The notes: generated by a model not told the origin, from the letters alone. DNA of 64,000 nucleotides from Escherichia coli O157:H7 (GCF_013167455.1 NZ_CP038328.1), one strand, 5' to 3'; shown: positions 12,919 through 16,007, numbered from the stretch's first letter. Numbers and translations: made by a program.

Positions 12919-14292
12919 TTATTTTAATAACCGCACCCGGCACGTTTTTCCTTTAATCTTCCCGCCCTGTAACTGTTTCCATGCTTTATGAGCAACAGCC
13001 TGACGGACCGCGACATAGACATGCGCCGGATGCACGGCGATTTTGCCAATATCTGCGCCATCAAGCCCGATATCTCCTGTCAGTGCACCTAATACATCAC
13101 CCGGGCGCATTTTGGCTTTTTTCCCGCCATCGATACACAACGTTGCCATTTCTGCTTCCAGCGTCACAATGGAACTATTAGCTGGTGGCGTTTGCCAGTT
13201 AAGTTTTATCTGCAACATGTCAGAAATGATATTGGCCCGCTGTGCTTCTTCCGGAGCACAGAAACTGATCGCCAGACCGCTATTTCCTGCACGAGCTGTA
13301 CGACCGATGCGATGTACATGAACTTCAGGGTCCCACGCCAGCTCAAAGTTCACCACCAGCTCAAGCGATTTAATATCCAGACCACGCGCAGCAACATCAG
13401 TCGCGACCAGTACACGGGCGCTACCGTTAGCAAAACGTACCAGGGTCTGATCACGATCGCGTTGCTCCAGATCGCCGTGTAATGACAATGCACTTTGCCC
13501 TACTTCATTCAGCGCGTCGCAGACAGCCTGGCAATCTTTTTTGGTATTGCAAAACACCACGCAAGAGGATGGCTGATGCAAGCTTAATAACCGTTGCAAC
13601 AGAGGAATTTTGCCTTTGCTGGATGTCTCATAAAATTGTTGTTCAATGGGTGGCAAAGCATCTGTTGAGTCAATTTCAATCGCCAAAGGATCGCGTTGCA
13701 CTCGTCCGCTGATTGCGGCGATGGCTTCCGGCCAGGTTGCCGAAAACAGAAGCGTCTGTCGAGATGCAGGCGCAAAACGGATGACATCATCAATGGCATC
13801 GCTAAATCCCATATCCAGCATGCGGTCGGCCTCATCCATCACCAAAGTATTCAGCGCATCCAGTGATACCGTGCCTTTTTGCAGGTGATCCAGCAAACGG
13901 CCCGGCGTTGCCACGATAATATGCGGCGCATGTTGCAACGAATCACGCTGCATACCGAACGGTTGACCACCGCACAACGTCAAAATTTTGGTATTTGGCA
14001 GAAAACGCGCCAGCCGACGCAATTCACCTGCCACCTGATCCGCCAGTTCACGCGTAGGACACAGCACTAAAGCCTGGGTTTGAAATAGCGACGCATCAAT
14101 TTGCTGTAACAAGCCGAGGCCAAAAGCCGCCGTTTTGCCGCTGCCAGTTTTCGCCTGCACGCGAACATCTTTTCCGGCAAGGATCGCCGGAAGCGCGGCG
14201 GCCTGCACCGGCGTCATGGTTAAATAACCCAACTCATTAAGGTTCGTGAGTTGGGCGGGAGGCAAAACATTCAGGGTAGAAAAAGCGGTCAC
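12919..14292 (-). CDS. dbpA: ATP-dependent RNA helicase DbpA
   Basis: 457 aa; DEAD-box motifs AKTGSGKT, DEAD, SAT. Confidence 0.95.
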   Translation of the reverse strand: MTAFSTLNVLPPAQLTNLNELGYLTMTPVQAAALPAILAGKDVRVQAKTGSGKTAAFGLGLLQQIDASLFQTQALVLCPTRELADQVAGELRRLARFLPNTKILTLCGGQPFGMQRDSLQHAPHIIVATPGRLLDHLQKGTVSLDALNTLVMDEADRMLDMGFSDAIDDVIRFAPASRQTLLFSATWPEAIAAISGRVQRDPLAIEIDSTDALPPIEQQFYETSSKGKIPLLQRLLSLHQPSSCVVFCNTKKDCQAVCDALNEVGQSALSLHGDLEQRDRDQTLVRFANGSARVLVATDVAARGLDIKSLELVVNFELAWDPEVHVHRIGRTARAGNSGLAISFCAPEEAQRANIISDMLQIKLNWQTPPANSSIVTLEAEMATLCIDGGKKAKMRPGDVLGALTGDIGLDGADIGKIAVHPAHVYVAVRQAVAHKAWKQLQGGKIKGKTCRVRLLK

Positions 14293-14321
14293 AATCTATT
14301 CTCGTGGTCATCGACGCAAAG

Positions 14322-14495
14322 TCATCAGGCGCGTATCCTCGCAGATCTACGCTCACGATGCGACAATTTAATCGGTTCTTCATCGGGTGGTGGGTCAGGC
14401 ATGGGTTGCGGGCGAGGGATCGGATCGGGCACTGGAACAGGATCGCCAGGAATCGGTTCAGGGACAGGAATTTGCAAATAAATAAGTGTCGTCAT
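14322..14495 (-). CDS. candidate small proline-rich protein (57 aa) upstream of dbpA
   Basis: ATG with GGAGGG SD 4 nt upstream; MTTLIYLQIPVPEPIPGDPVPVPDPIPRPQPMPDPPPDEEPIKLSHRERRSARIRA. Confidence 0.3.
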
Positions 14496-14552
14496 ATTTC
14501 CCTCCGGTCATTGGGTGGACTCTTAAAGGGTAGACGCTGATAAATAACAGGC

Positions 14553-14674
14553 AAAAAAAAGCCGACTCATCAAAGTCGGCGTCGTACGAATCAATTGTGC
14601 TATGCAGTAATTCAAAAAAGGAAGTAAGACAATATGGAGCGCAACGCCCATCGCTTGACGTTGCATTCACCTGC
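14553..14674 (-). ncRNA. fnrS: FnrS small RNA
   Basis: minus-strand sequence GCAGGTGAATGCAACG...CGCCGACTTTGATGAGTCGGCTTTTTTTT matches my recollection of FnrS; intrinsic terminator; zntB-dbpA intergenic. Confidence 0.8.
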
Positions 14675-14705
14675 AAGAGAGATATTGCCCTGAATGGGTA
14701 GAGAG

Positions 14706-14719
14706 TTTATTGACTTCGC
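14706..14719 (-). promoter_or_regulatory. FNR box upstream of fnrS
   Basis: TTGAG-CGAA-GTCAA fits TTGAT-N4-ATCAA, centred about 40 nt upstream of the FnrS 5' end. Confidence 0.6.
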
Positions 14720-14769
14720 TCAAACTTTGCGGCGTTTTTGTATACAGACAGCCGGAAAAATTGCTTTTG

Positions 14770-15774
<1,005 letters not shown>

Positions 15775-16007
15775 TTATTTTGTAGTCTAGCCTTCTGGCC
15801 CTGTTACGCAACATCTCATCACCCCATTACCCTGAAATGATTAATAAAATTCTGTCTAAATTGAATACAAAAAGCAAAATGCTTTTCCGTATACAAACCG
15901 TGTGAAGTGTTAAATAGCGTCTATCATTATCAGAATTATCTGATCATATGACGTGGCTTTTTTGCGATCGGATAGCAACAAAAATTGATAAAAATAATGG
16001 GATCTCA

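What the first reader, a model, noticed from the sequence alone, without database searches (positions are those of the whole stretch)
14322..14495. Small proline-rich ORF with a strong Shine-Dalgarno between the FnrS terminator and dbpA
A 57-codon minus-strand ORF starts 4 nt after GGAGGG and encodes a hydrophobic N-terminus followed by about 14 X-Pro repeats, then a basic tail. It lies directly downstream of the FnrS terminator and upstream of the dbpA start. Such Pro-rich stretches are translated slowly, so this could be a regulatory leader peptide for dbpA or a small protein; it is too short for the ORF track.
Basis: seen in the sequence. Interest (0 to 1): 0.35.

Follow-up and report, generated by a model that had tools for sequence, protein, structure and literature searches.

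The report
Known small protein gene ynaL
The proline-rich mini-ORF is the already annotated, experimentally detected E. coli small-protein gene ynaL; its proline-rich core is conserved as a peptide, its basic tail is the dbpA promoter read as codons, and it does not look like a classical leader peptide for dbpA.

Summary
The ORF is real: window 14325..14495 (-), 56 codons plus TGA, with GGAGGG 4 nt upstream. It is ynaL ("proline-rich small protein YnaL"). RefSeq annotates it in about 5,390 E. coli genomes, it is a full-length member of Pfam PF23677, and a chromosomal SPA tag detected it in K-12 (VanOrsdel 2018).

New detail from 80 dbpA-anchored Enterobacteriaceae loci:
- **Presence.** 68 carry ynaL.
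- **Core.** Residues 16-40 have dN/dS 0.05-0.08 at dS about 1.4, the same as dbpA, so the peptide sequence is selected.
- **Tail.** The last 16 or so codons have dS about 0. They are conserved as DNA, even where a stop removes the tail (12 species) or ynaL is deleted (Kluyvera).
- **dbpA promoter.** That DNA is the dbpA promoter. Mapped start sites in K-12 and O157:H7 EDL933 fall in ynaL's last codons (window 14326/14328).
- **ynaL promoter.** ynaL has its own conserved promoter abutting the FnrS terminator (TSS 14520).

Most dbpA mRNA therefore lacks ynaL. Stop-to-start spacing varies from 14 to 63 nt, and no conserved RNA structure exists. The classical leader-peptide reading is not supported. 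A trans-acting polyproline peptide is the likeliest function, but function remains unknown. The gene is already known; interest is low.

The parts
14325..14495 (-). ynaL coding sequence: ATG, 56 codons, TGA. This is the O157-type allele; K-12 has one more codon, Cys57.
   Evidence: ORF list. RefSeq annotation 'ynaL: proline-rich small protein YnaL'. Pfam PF23677 at 131.7 bits against a cut-off of 27. Published SPA-tag detection.
14500..14505 (-). Shine-Dalgarno GGAGGG, 4 nt before the ATG.
   Evidence: Sequence. A GGAG-type motif sits 4-9 nt before the start codon in nearly all 68 species.
14520..14554 (-). ynaL promoter: -35 TTGCCT (14554-14549, overlapping the end of the FnrS terminator U-tract), a 16-nt spacer, -10 TACCCT (14532-14527), and TSS G at 14520. 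The 5'UTR is 25 nt.
   Evidence: Cappable-seq TSS at EDL933 2177640, which is window 14520, in 4 of 8 conditions. TTGCCT and CTACCCT are at least 90% conserved in 67 species while the spacer varies.
14376..14450 (-). Proline-rich core, residues 16-40 (P.DPvPvPDPIPRPQPMPDPPPDEE), selected at the peptide level.
   Evidence: First and second codon positions are invariant, and third positions vary by 0.9-1.9 bits. dN/dS is 0.079, or 0.047 for residues 24-40, at dS 1.35-1.44. dbpA gives 0.046 at dS 1.44.
14382..14396 (-). DPPPD, residues 34-38, an EF-P-dependent-type polyproline motif.
   Evidence: The three Pro positions are conserved in 68/68, 65/68 and 67/68 species. Stalling itself is inferred from general knowledge of EF-P and was not tested.
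14358..14375 (-). Block A, CCGATTAAATTGTCGCAT (codons PIKLSH), conserved as DNA. It is the upstream part of the dbpA promoter: an AT-rich stretch plus a TTGTCG -35-like hexamer.
   Evidence: Third-position entropy is about 0 and dS is 0.07 against a background of 1.4. The block is retained in Kluyvera, which lacks ynaL. It lies at -49 to -32 of the mapped K-12 TSS.
14326..14348 (-). Block B and the dbpA core promoter inside ynaL codons 50-56: extended -10 TGCGAGGAT (14343-14335), GC-rich discriminator ACGCGCC, and TSS at 14328 (EDL933) or 14326 (K-12 equivalent).
   Evidence: Kim 2012 TSS at 1407501, with 126 reads and promoter sequence ...TCTGCGAGGATACGCGCCTG. EDL933 TSS at 2177448. dS is 0.00. 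Outgroup genera have TGCTAGAAT or TGCTAGCAT at the same position.
14557..14674 (-). FnrS sRNA gene with its intrinsic terminator (hairpin 14580-14561), directly upstream.
   Evidence: Rfam RF01796 at 134.8 bits. Terminator scan. EDL933 TSS 2177794 equals window 14674.
12919..14292 (-). dbpA, the 23S rRNA-dependent DEAD-box helicase, with a GTG start 32 nt after the ynaL stop.
   Evidence: ORF list. Annotation.

Best explanation
**Shown.** The ORF is ynaL, a real, translated small-protein gene restricted to one clade of Enterobacteriaceae. The locus holds three nested transcription units:
- FnrS, with its terminator.
- A conserved ynaL promoter that abuts that terminator (TSS 14520). No terminator follows ynaL, so this transcript runs on into dbpA.
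- The main dbpA promoter, which lies inside the last 16 or so codons of ynaL (TSS 14328/14326).

The gene therefore has two kinds of constraint. Residues 16-40, an acidic X-Pro/PPP core, are under purifying selection on the amino-acid sequence as strong as that on DbpA. The PIKLSH and RSARIRA(C) tail is conserved only because its DNA is the dbpA promoter. As peptide the tail is dispensable.

**Inferred.** YnaL most likely acts as a free, unstructured polyproline-II-type peptide, that is, in trans. It is probably made mainly in stationary phase or under oxygen limitation, from a promoter with sigma-S-like features. It probably has a role linked to DbpA or the ribosome, because the gene has stayed glued to dbpA. 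It is not a classical leader peptide, because most dbpA mRNA starts downstream of its coding sequence.
For: **Identity.** RefSeq annotation in 5,392 of 5,426 E. coli genomes, the K-12 and EDL933 records, and Pfam PF23677 at 131.7 bits.

**Translation.** SPA-tag immunoblot in LB and tetracycline ribosome profiling (PMC6001520).

**Conservation.** The ORF is intact in 68 of 80 dbpA-anchored species loci. The sense frame has stops in 0 of 68 species, against 8 of 68 for the wobble-sharing antisense frame. Core dN/dS is 0.047-0.079 at dS 1.35-1.44, equal to dbpA at 0.046. Length variants within species are all in frame.

**Tail equals promoter.**
- dS is 0.00-0.07 in the two blocks.
- Twelve species have a stop right after SHR or SR, yet the downstream DNA is unchanged.
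- Kluyvera lacks ynaL but keeps both blocks, and the DbpA tree nests Kluyvera inside the ynaL-positive clade.
- Mapped TSSs place the dbpA start in ynaL's last codons.

**Own promoter.** TSS at 14520, 7 nt after the conserved TACCCT.

**Co-transcription.** An RNA-seq compendium calls ynaL-dbpA co-transcribed with p=0.68 (PMC10392735).

**No attenuator.** No conserved structure or terminator lies between the genes.

**Growth phase.** DbpA protein is higher in exponential phase (PMC13393375). This fits a growth-regulated internal promoter that is separate from the ynaL promoter.
Against: No experiment assigns YnaL any function, and no partner is known.
- My AF2 attempt to dock YnaL on DbpA failed outright (mean pLDDT 36.8).
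- The trans-acting reading rests on exclusion plus published tagged-protein accumulation.
- An invariant 25-residue stretch ending in DPPPDEE is also what a nascent-chain arrest element would look like.
- The sigma-S and stationary-phase assignment of the ynaL promoter is inferred from the -13C/CTACCCT/AT-rich motif and from its co-occurrence with the fnrS TSS in four conditions.
- The K-12 TSS list shows no ynaL TSS.
Confidence: 0.6

Rival explanations
1. ynaL is a cis-acting sensor uORF. On the ynaL-dbpA bicistronic transcript, ribosomes pause at the invariant DPPPD, with the conserved upstream residues tuning the pause in the exit tunnel. The pause would depend on EF-P or proline-tRNA supply. 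Pausing would uncouple transcription from translation (Rho polarity), or change re-initiation at the weak GTG start of dbpA 14-63 nt downstream. DbpA output from this promoter would then report translation or peptidyl-transfer capacity.
For: PPP is conserved in about 65 of 68 species, flanked by D on both sides. The N-terminus is variable and the conserved block sits C-proximally, as in arrest peptides. No terminator lies between the genes, and RNA-seq calls them co-transcribed. dbpA has a GTG start and only a GAGA-type Shine-Dalgarno. Synteny is conserved in 68 species.
Against: The main dbpA TSS lies inside ynaL's last codons, so most dbpA mRNA lacks the uORF. Stop-to-start distance and stop position are not conserved, ranging from 14 to 63 nt. 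There is no conserved RNA structure. Kluyvera and the outgroups express dbpA from the same promoter without ynaL. Full-length tagged protein accumulates. Every non-proline core residue is as conserved as the prolines, which is more than known proline-codon leaders need.
Confidence: 0.2
2. ynaL is a translated but functionless young ORF. Its apparent conservation would merely reflect DNA-level constraints from the two promoters and the FnrS terminator in a crowded intergenic region.
For: About a third of the ORF (blocks A and B) is conserved as DNA, not as protein. The N-terminal 15 or so residues are unconserved. The gene is confined to one clade and was lost in Kluyvera. The tail was lost in 12 species.
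Against: In the core, synonymous sites are saturated (dS 1.35-1.44) while amino acids are nearly invariant (dN/dS 0.05-0.08), so the DNA there is not constrained but the peptide is. The frame is open in 68 of 68 species, and indels are always in frame.
Confidence: 0.04
3. The selected product is the antisense glycine-rich ORF (window 14251..14481 +, 76 aa), which shares wobble positions with ynaL.
For: The antisense frame also shows low dN/dS (0.117), because Pro CCN is read as Gly GGN on the other strand.
Against: That frame has in-frame stops in 8 of 68 species, against 0 of 68 for the sense frame. It has no conserved start codon or Shine-Dalgarno. The mapped TSSs, the Shine-Dalgarno and the SPA tag are all on the minus strand.
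Confidence: 0.01

Closest known systems
YnaL of E. coli K-12 (b4743; Pfam PF23677; VanOrsdel et al. 2018, PMC6001520)
   Same: It is the same gene. The sequence is identical except for the last codon, and the fnrS-ynaL-dbpA position is the same.
   Different: The window carries the O157-type allele, TGA-TGA, giving 56 aa with no terminal Cys. This allele occurs in 349 of 5,426 genomes. The K-12 type, TGC-TAA, occurs in 3,667, and TGC-TGA in 1,273.
Proline-codon leader ORFs mgtL and mgtP of Salmonella mgtA/mgtCBR, and polyproline- or EF-P-sensitive regulators generally (from my own knowledge)
   Same: It is a short ORF upstream of a gene, with consecutive proline codons whose decoding speed depends on EF-P and Pro-tRNA.
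   Different: Those ORFs lie inside the regulated gene's 5' leader and switch alternative RNA hairpins. Here the main dbpA TSS is downstream of the ORF body, no alternative structures exist, and the whole 25-residue peptide is conserved, not just the Pro codons.
Nascent-chain arrest peptides (SecM, TnaC, MifM; from my own knowledge)
   Same: It has a variable N-terminus and an invariant C-proximal block of tunnel length that ends at a poor peptidyl-transfer site (PPP).
   Different: There is no downstream structure or RBS-unmasking target. The geometry to dbpA is variable. The full-length product accumulates.
TonB (X-Pro)n spacer and proline-rich antimicrobial peptides (apidaecin/oncocin type; from my own knowledge)
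   Same: It has alternating X-Pro runs expected to form an extended polyproline-II rod. The local string IPRPQP resembles PrAMP motifs.
   Different: The resemblance is compositional only. The TonB_N HMM scores 10.6 bits against a cut-off of 33, and the NCBIfam TonB model 20.5 against 315. The YnaL core is acidic (net -6), whereas PrAMPs are cationic. There is no signal peptide or export genes.
Promoters embedded in the 3' end of an upstream gene (a common bacterial arrangement)
   Same: The dbpA core promoter sits within ynaL's coding sequence and suppresses synonymous change there.
   Different: Here the overlap covers about 30% of a 56-codon gene, so it dominates the family's apparent protein conservation, including the tail of the Pfam profile.

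Membership tests
YnaL family (Pfam PF23677, 'proline-rich small protein YnaL') | Full-length match to the family HMM above the gathering score | tested here: met
   131.7 bits against a cut-off of 27, E 8.8e-39, residues 1-56 on profile positions 1-56 of 57.
YnaL family (Pfam PF23677, 'proline-rich small protein YnaL') | Genomic position between fnrS and dbpA, on the same strand | tested here: met
   The arrangement is the same in 68 species loci and in Salmonella enterica.
YnaL family (Pfam PF23677, 'proline-rich small protein YnaL') | The product is actually translated | not testable with these tools
   This rests on published SPA-tag immunoblots and tetracycline ribosome profiling for the K-12 allele. 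Supporting evidence here: dN/dS 0.05-0.08 and a conserved Shine-Dalgarno and ATG.
Leader-peptide or attenuation-type regulators of a downstream gene | The ORF lies within the 5' leader of the regulated gene's main transcript | tested here: not met
   The main dbpA TSS is at 14326/14328, inside ynaL's last two codons. Only the transcript from the ynaL promoter (TSS 14520) contains both genes.
Leader-peptide or attenuation-type regulators of a downstream gene | A terminator or alternative RNA structures between the ORF and the gene, conserved with covariation | tested here: not met
   No terminator between 14292 and 14325. The RNAalifold consensus is -6.2 kcal/mol with a covariation term of +0.1. 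The ynaL mRNA is less structured than shuffled controls, z = +1.75.
Leader-peptide or attenuation-type regulators of a downstream gene | Conserved stop-to-start geometry (translational coupling) | tested here: not met
   The gap is 14, 19, 23, 27-32 or 57-63 nt in different genera, and the stop falls at different codons.
Leader-peptide or attenuation-type regulators of a downstream gene | A ribosome-stalling determinant in the ORF | tested here: inconclusive
   The DPPPD motif is present and conserved. Whether ribosomes stall there, and with what consequence, cannot be tested with these tools.
Small membrane proteins | A hydrophobic helix of about 19 residues | tested here: not met
   The best 19-residue Kyte-Doolittle mean is 0.63. 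The hydrophobic stretch is 9 residues long and is absent in Klebsiella and Kosakonia homologues.
TonB N-terminal proline-rich region | HMM match above threshold | tested here: not met
   PF16031 scores 10.6 bits against 33, and NF008084 scores 20.5 against 315. The match is compositional.

The most novel reading that the evidence does not exclude
The invariant acidic polyproline core of YnaL could be a functional partner or sensor for large-subunit biogenesis. One version is a trans-acting PPII peptide, made in stationary phase, that binds DbpA or the ribosome (for example the exit tunnel or the peptidyl-transferase region, where DbpA's hairpin-92 substrate lies). The other is an EF-P-dependent arrest peptide that couples dbpA read-through expression to peptidyl-transfer capacity. 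Nothing here excludes either version. The evidence is only tight synteny with dbpA in 68 species, peptide-level selection as strong as on DbpA, and a conserved DPPPD.
Probability: 0.15. Interest if true: 0.55.

Novelty: already known. Interest (0 to 1): 0.18.

Why it matters
As a discovery it matters little. ynaL has been published since 2018 and is in RefSeq, EcoCyc numbering (b4743) and Pfam.

The second look adds practical points for anyone who studies it:
- **Which part is the functional peptide.** Only residues 16-40 or so are selected as peptide. The basic tail, which makes up much of the family profile, is promoter DNA.
- **Constructs will hit dbpA.** The dbpA promoter and TSS sit in ynaL's last codons. 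Whole-ORF deletions and C-terminal tag insertions will disturb dbpA expression, and phenotypes could be mis-assigned.
- **Separate promoters.** ynaL has its own conserved promoter with a different condition profile from the dbpA promoter.

The locus is also a clean example of how overlapping regulatory DNA can pass for protein conservation in a small gene.

Tried and rejected
- **Consensus sigma-70 scan of 14150-14850.** It found no promoter. Both real promoters are non-consensus and were found only through cross-species conservation plus published TSS maps.
- **TSS look-ups that gave nothing.** These were the Cappable-seq K-12 supplement, Thomason 2015, which is not held, ROSE, Adams 2021 and the Klebsiella sheet of Kim 2012.
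- **EDL933 condition labels.** I could not read the column labels of the EDL933 TSS table because supplement look-ups were exhausted. 'Stationary-phase' for the ynaL promoter is therefore only inferred.
- **AlphaFold2 docking.** A YnaL-(G4S)6-DbpA fusion with an 11-sequence paired alignment gave mean pLDDT 36.8 and pTM 0.25. Even DbpA did not fold, so the run says nothing about binding.
- **Tandem Repeats Finder on the ORF.** It found no array. The X-Pro periodicity is at the protein level, although in-frame unit gains and losses occur between strains.
- **tblastn against plasmids and phages.** No copies were found, with the low-complexity filter on.
- **Literature searches.** Searches for ynaL with dbpA, with ribosome profiling, and for dbpA with EF-P or RpoS returned only VanOrsdel 2018, one proteomics paper and unrelated Borrelia DbpA papers.
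- **Rejected readings.** I rejected a membrane protein, a TonB relative, an antisense Gly-rich gene, and a purely DNA-constrained non-gene.

Full report
**1. The observation.** On the minus strand an ATG at 14495 opens a 56-codon frame that ends at TGA 14327-14325, followed at once by a second TGA. GGAGGG (14505-14500) lies 4 nt before the ATG. The peptide is MTTLIYLQIPVPEPIPGDPVPVPDPIPRPQPMPDPPPDEEPIKLSHRERRSARIRA.
- It has 16 Pro in 56 residues and 14 X-Pro dipeptides.
- The core is acidic (net -6) and the tail basic (net +5).
- It is the most proline-rich ATG ORF of at least 50 aa in the whole window.
- FnrS (Rfam RF01796, 134.8 bits) occupies 14557-14674, with its terminator at 14580-14561.
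- The dbpA GTG is at 14292.

The '57 codons' count includes the stop, and the coordinates include the second stop. The hydrophobic N-terminus is only about 9 residues long, so there is no membrane helix.

**2. Identity.** The ORF is the annotated gene ynaL.
- The 601-bp region is present in 5,392 of 5,426 complete E. coli genomes. RefSeq labels it 'proline-rich small protein YnaL' or 'protein YnaL', between zntB and dbpA.
- The peptide is a full-length member of Pfam PF23677 'YnaL' (131.7 bits).
- VanOrsdel et al. 2018 (PMC6001520) list ynaL between fnrS and dbpA at 1409308-1409481, 57 aa. They detected chromosomally SPA-tagged YnaL by immunoblot in LB cultures and noted it as a positive in tetracycline-arrest ribosome profiling. 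They remarked only that it might share an operon with dbpA.
- No other held paper discusses it.
- Window 14180-14780 is base-for-base identical to O157:H7 EDL933.
- The window allele, TGA-TGA with no terminal Cys, occurs in 349 genomes. The K-12 allele TGC-TAA occurs in 3,667, and TGC-TGA in 1,273.

**3. Comparative anatomy.** I fetched 80 species-level loci anchored on dbpA, not on ynaL.
- Sixty-eight carry the ORF directly upstream of dbpA. They include Escherichia, Salmonella, Citrobacter, Enterobacter, Lelliottia, Leclercia, Klebsiella, Raoultella, Kosakonia, Superficieibacter, Pseudocitrobacter and others.
- Twelve lack it: Kluyvera, Cedecea, Dryocola, Siccibacter, Atlantibacter and one 'Enterobacter' isolate.
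- On a DbpA neighbour-joining tree the ynaL-positive species form one clade. Kluyvera is nested inside it, which indicates secondary loss. The other ynaL-negative genera form the outgroup.
- Homologue searches found 165 proteins, all PF23677, and none on plasmids or phages. All hits that carried a source name were Enterobacteriaceae.

**4. Two kinds of constraint in one small gene.** An ungapped codon alignment of 68 sequences shows the following.

| Segment | Pattern | dN/dS and dS |
|---|---|---|
| First ~15 residues | Not conserved | not computed |
| Residues 16-40 (P.DPvPvPDPIPRPQPMPDPPPDEE) | First and second codon positions invariant; third positions vary 0.9-1.9 bits | dN/dS 0.079 (0.047 for residues 24-40) at dS 1.35-1.44 |
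| dbpA, for comparison | - | dN/dS 0.046 at dS 1.44 |
| Codons 41-46 (CCGATTAAATTGTCGCAT) | Third positions do not vary | dS 0.07 |
| Codons 50-55 (AGATCTGCGAGGATACGC) | Third positions do not vary | dS 0.00 |

- The core peptide is therefore under strong purifying selection.
- The two 3' blocks are conserved as DNA. They flank three freely varying codons.
- Twelve species have a stop codon (TAG, TAA or TGA, at two different positions) right after SHR or SR, yet the DNA beyond it is unchanged.
- Kluyvera, which has lost the Shine-Dalgarno, start and core, retains both blocks.
- The antisense glycine-rich frame shares wobble positions and so also shows low dN/dS (0.117). It is interrupted by stops in 8 of 68 species, against 0 of 68 for the sense frame.
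- Length variants within E. coli and Salmonella (42, 46, 68 and 70 aa) are all in-frame gains or losses of X-Pro units upstream of the invariant PRPQPMPDPPPDEE.

**5. What the conserved DNA is.** Block B reads TGCGAGGAT, an extended -10, followed by the GC-rich ACGCGCC. In the outgroup genera the same position reads TGCTAGAAT or TGCTAGCAT, preceded at 17 nt by ATGACC. Published maps confirm a promoter.
- Kim et al. 2012 (PMC3415461, Table S1) place a K-12 TSS at NC_000913.2 position 1407501, with 126 reads. They assign it to dbpA with a 34-nt 5'UTR and upstream sequence ACCGATTAAATTGTCGCATCGTGAGCGTAGATCTGCGAGGATACGCGCCTG. That G is the second base of ynaL codon 57.
- In EDL933 Cappable-seq (PMC10469882) a minus-strand TSS at 2177448 appears in 6 of 8 conditions. 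With the exact offset of 2,163,120 this is window 14328, 7 nt after GAGGAT.

The dbpA core promoter therefore lies inside ynaL codons 50-56. Block A (AT-rich plus TTGTCG, at -49 to -32) is its upstream part. The 20-nt spacing from TTGTCG to GAGGAT is too long for a standard -35, so its exact role (UP-like element or activator site) is open. The GC-rich discriminator suggests growth-rate or stringent control (inference). This fits DbpA protein being more abundant in exponential phase (PMC13393375).

**6. ynaL's own promoter.** Directly after the FnrS terminator, TTGCCT (overlapping the U-tract), a variable 16-nt spacer and CTACCCT are at least 90% conserved in 67 species.
- EDL933 Cappable-seq has a TSS at 2177640, which is window 14520, exactly 7 nt after TACCCT. 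It appears in 4 of 8 conditions.
- Those are the same four conditions in which the fnrS TSS (2177794, window 14674) is also seen. They differ from the dbpA-TSS pattern.
- The -13 C, CTACCCT and the following AT-rich stretch resemble sigma-S-type promoters.
- I infer, but could not verify, that the four conditions are the stationary-phase samples.
- No terminator follows ynaL, and an RNA-seq compendium calls ynaL-dbpA co-transcribed with p=0.68 (PMC10392735). This transcript is therefore bicistronic.

**7. Leader peptide or protein?**

Against a classical leader:
- Most dbpA mRNA starts downstream of the ynaL body.
- The stop-to-GTG distance ranges from 14 to 63 nt.
- There is no conserved RNA structure or covariation between the core and the dbpA start.
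- The ynaL mRNA is less structured than shuffled controls.
- dbpA keeps its promoter and is retained where ynaL is lost.
- The tagged full-length protein accumulates.

For some cis role:
- DPPPD is conserved. It combines DPP, PPP and PPD, all triplets of the EF-P-dependent type (from my own knowledge).
- The conserved block is C-proximal, as in arrest peptides.
- dbpA has a GTG start with a weak GAGA Shine-Dalgarno.

Every non-proline residue of the core is as conserved as the prolines. This points to sequence-specific recognition, either of a free PPII-type peptide or of the nascent chain. I put about 0.6 on a trans-acting small protein, about 0.2 on an EF-P- or translation-sensing uORF acting on the bicistronic transcript, and little on the rest. 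An AlphaFold2 attempt to dock YnaL on DbpA failed technically (mean pLDDT 36.8).

**8. Comparison and verdict.** The feature is a member of the YnaL family; indeed it is ynaL itself. It fails the tests for leader or attenuator systems, membrane small proteins and TonB-like regions. It is already known, and only the promoter-overlap anatomy and the selection analysis appear to be new detail. One practical consequence follows. Whole-ORF deletions or C-terminal tag insertions in ynaL will separate dbpA from its promoter and TSS. Interest is low (0.18).

Noticed in passing
window 14326-14375 (-): The dbpA promoter lies inside the last third of ynaL. It comprises the extended -10 TGCGAGGAT at 14343-14335, a GC-rich discriminator, TSS 14328/14326 and an upstream AT-rich/TTGTCG block. 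Whole-ORF deletion or C-terminal tagging of ynaL would cut dbpA from its promoter.
   Followed up: yes
window 14520-14560 (-): The -35 (TTGCCT) of the ynaL promoter overlaps the last bases of the FnrS terminator U-tract. The -10 region TCTACCCTTTAA has sigma-S-like features, notably C at -13. In EDL933 the TSS at 14520 appears in the same four conditions as the fnrS TSS.
   Followed up: partly
window 14358-14375 (-): Block A of the dbpA promoter (GATTAAATTGTCGCAT) is invariant across 68 species and Kluyvera. Its TTGTCG hexamer is 20 nt from the -10, too far for a normal -35, so it may be a UP-like element or an activator site. This is unexplained.
   Followed up: no
window 15767-15814 (-): A 15-codon [18 protein letters not shown], ends 13 nt before the zntB GTG at 15753. 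It is the annotated micro-protein gene ynaN.
   Followed up: partly
window 14710-14723: An FNR-type palindrome, TTGAGCGAAGTCAA, is centred 42.5 nt upstream of the FnrS 5' end (14674). This is the expected class II FNR site. It lies just downstream of the zntB stop (14770).
   Followed up: partly
window 14325-14327 (-); E. coli population: There are three stop-region alleles of ynaL in 5,426 genomes. TGA-TGA (56 aa, window/O157 lineage) occurs in 349, TGC-TAA (K-12) in 3,667 and TGC-TGA in 1,273. The polymorphic bases are at +1 to +4 of the dbpA transcript.
   Followed up: yes
L004 (E. coli E69), P0001, P0118, P0068 (Salmonella; L083 2001-2213): In-frame gains and losses of X-Pro units give 42-, 46-, 68- and 70-aa YnaL variants within species. 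All leave PRPQPMPDPPPDEE intact.
   Followed up: partly
L070, L072, L073, L075, L078 (Kluyvera and a relative), about 120 nt before dbpA: A clean deletion of the ynaL Shine-Dalgarno, start and proline core leaves the FnrS terminator, CTACCCT and the dbpA promoter blocks side by side. In Kluyvera ascorbata (L070) FnrS ends 119 nt before dbpA, against 265 nt in E. coli.
   Followed up: partly
window 14251-14481 (+): A 76-aa glycine-rich antisense ORF mirrors the proline codons and shares their wobble positions, so a naive dN/dS test also looks 'selected' (0.117). It is broken by stops in 8 of 68 species.
   Followed up: yes
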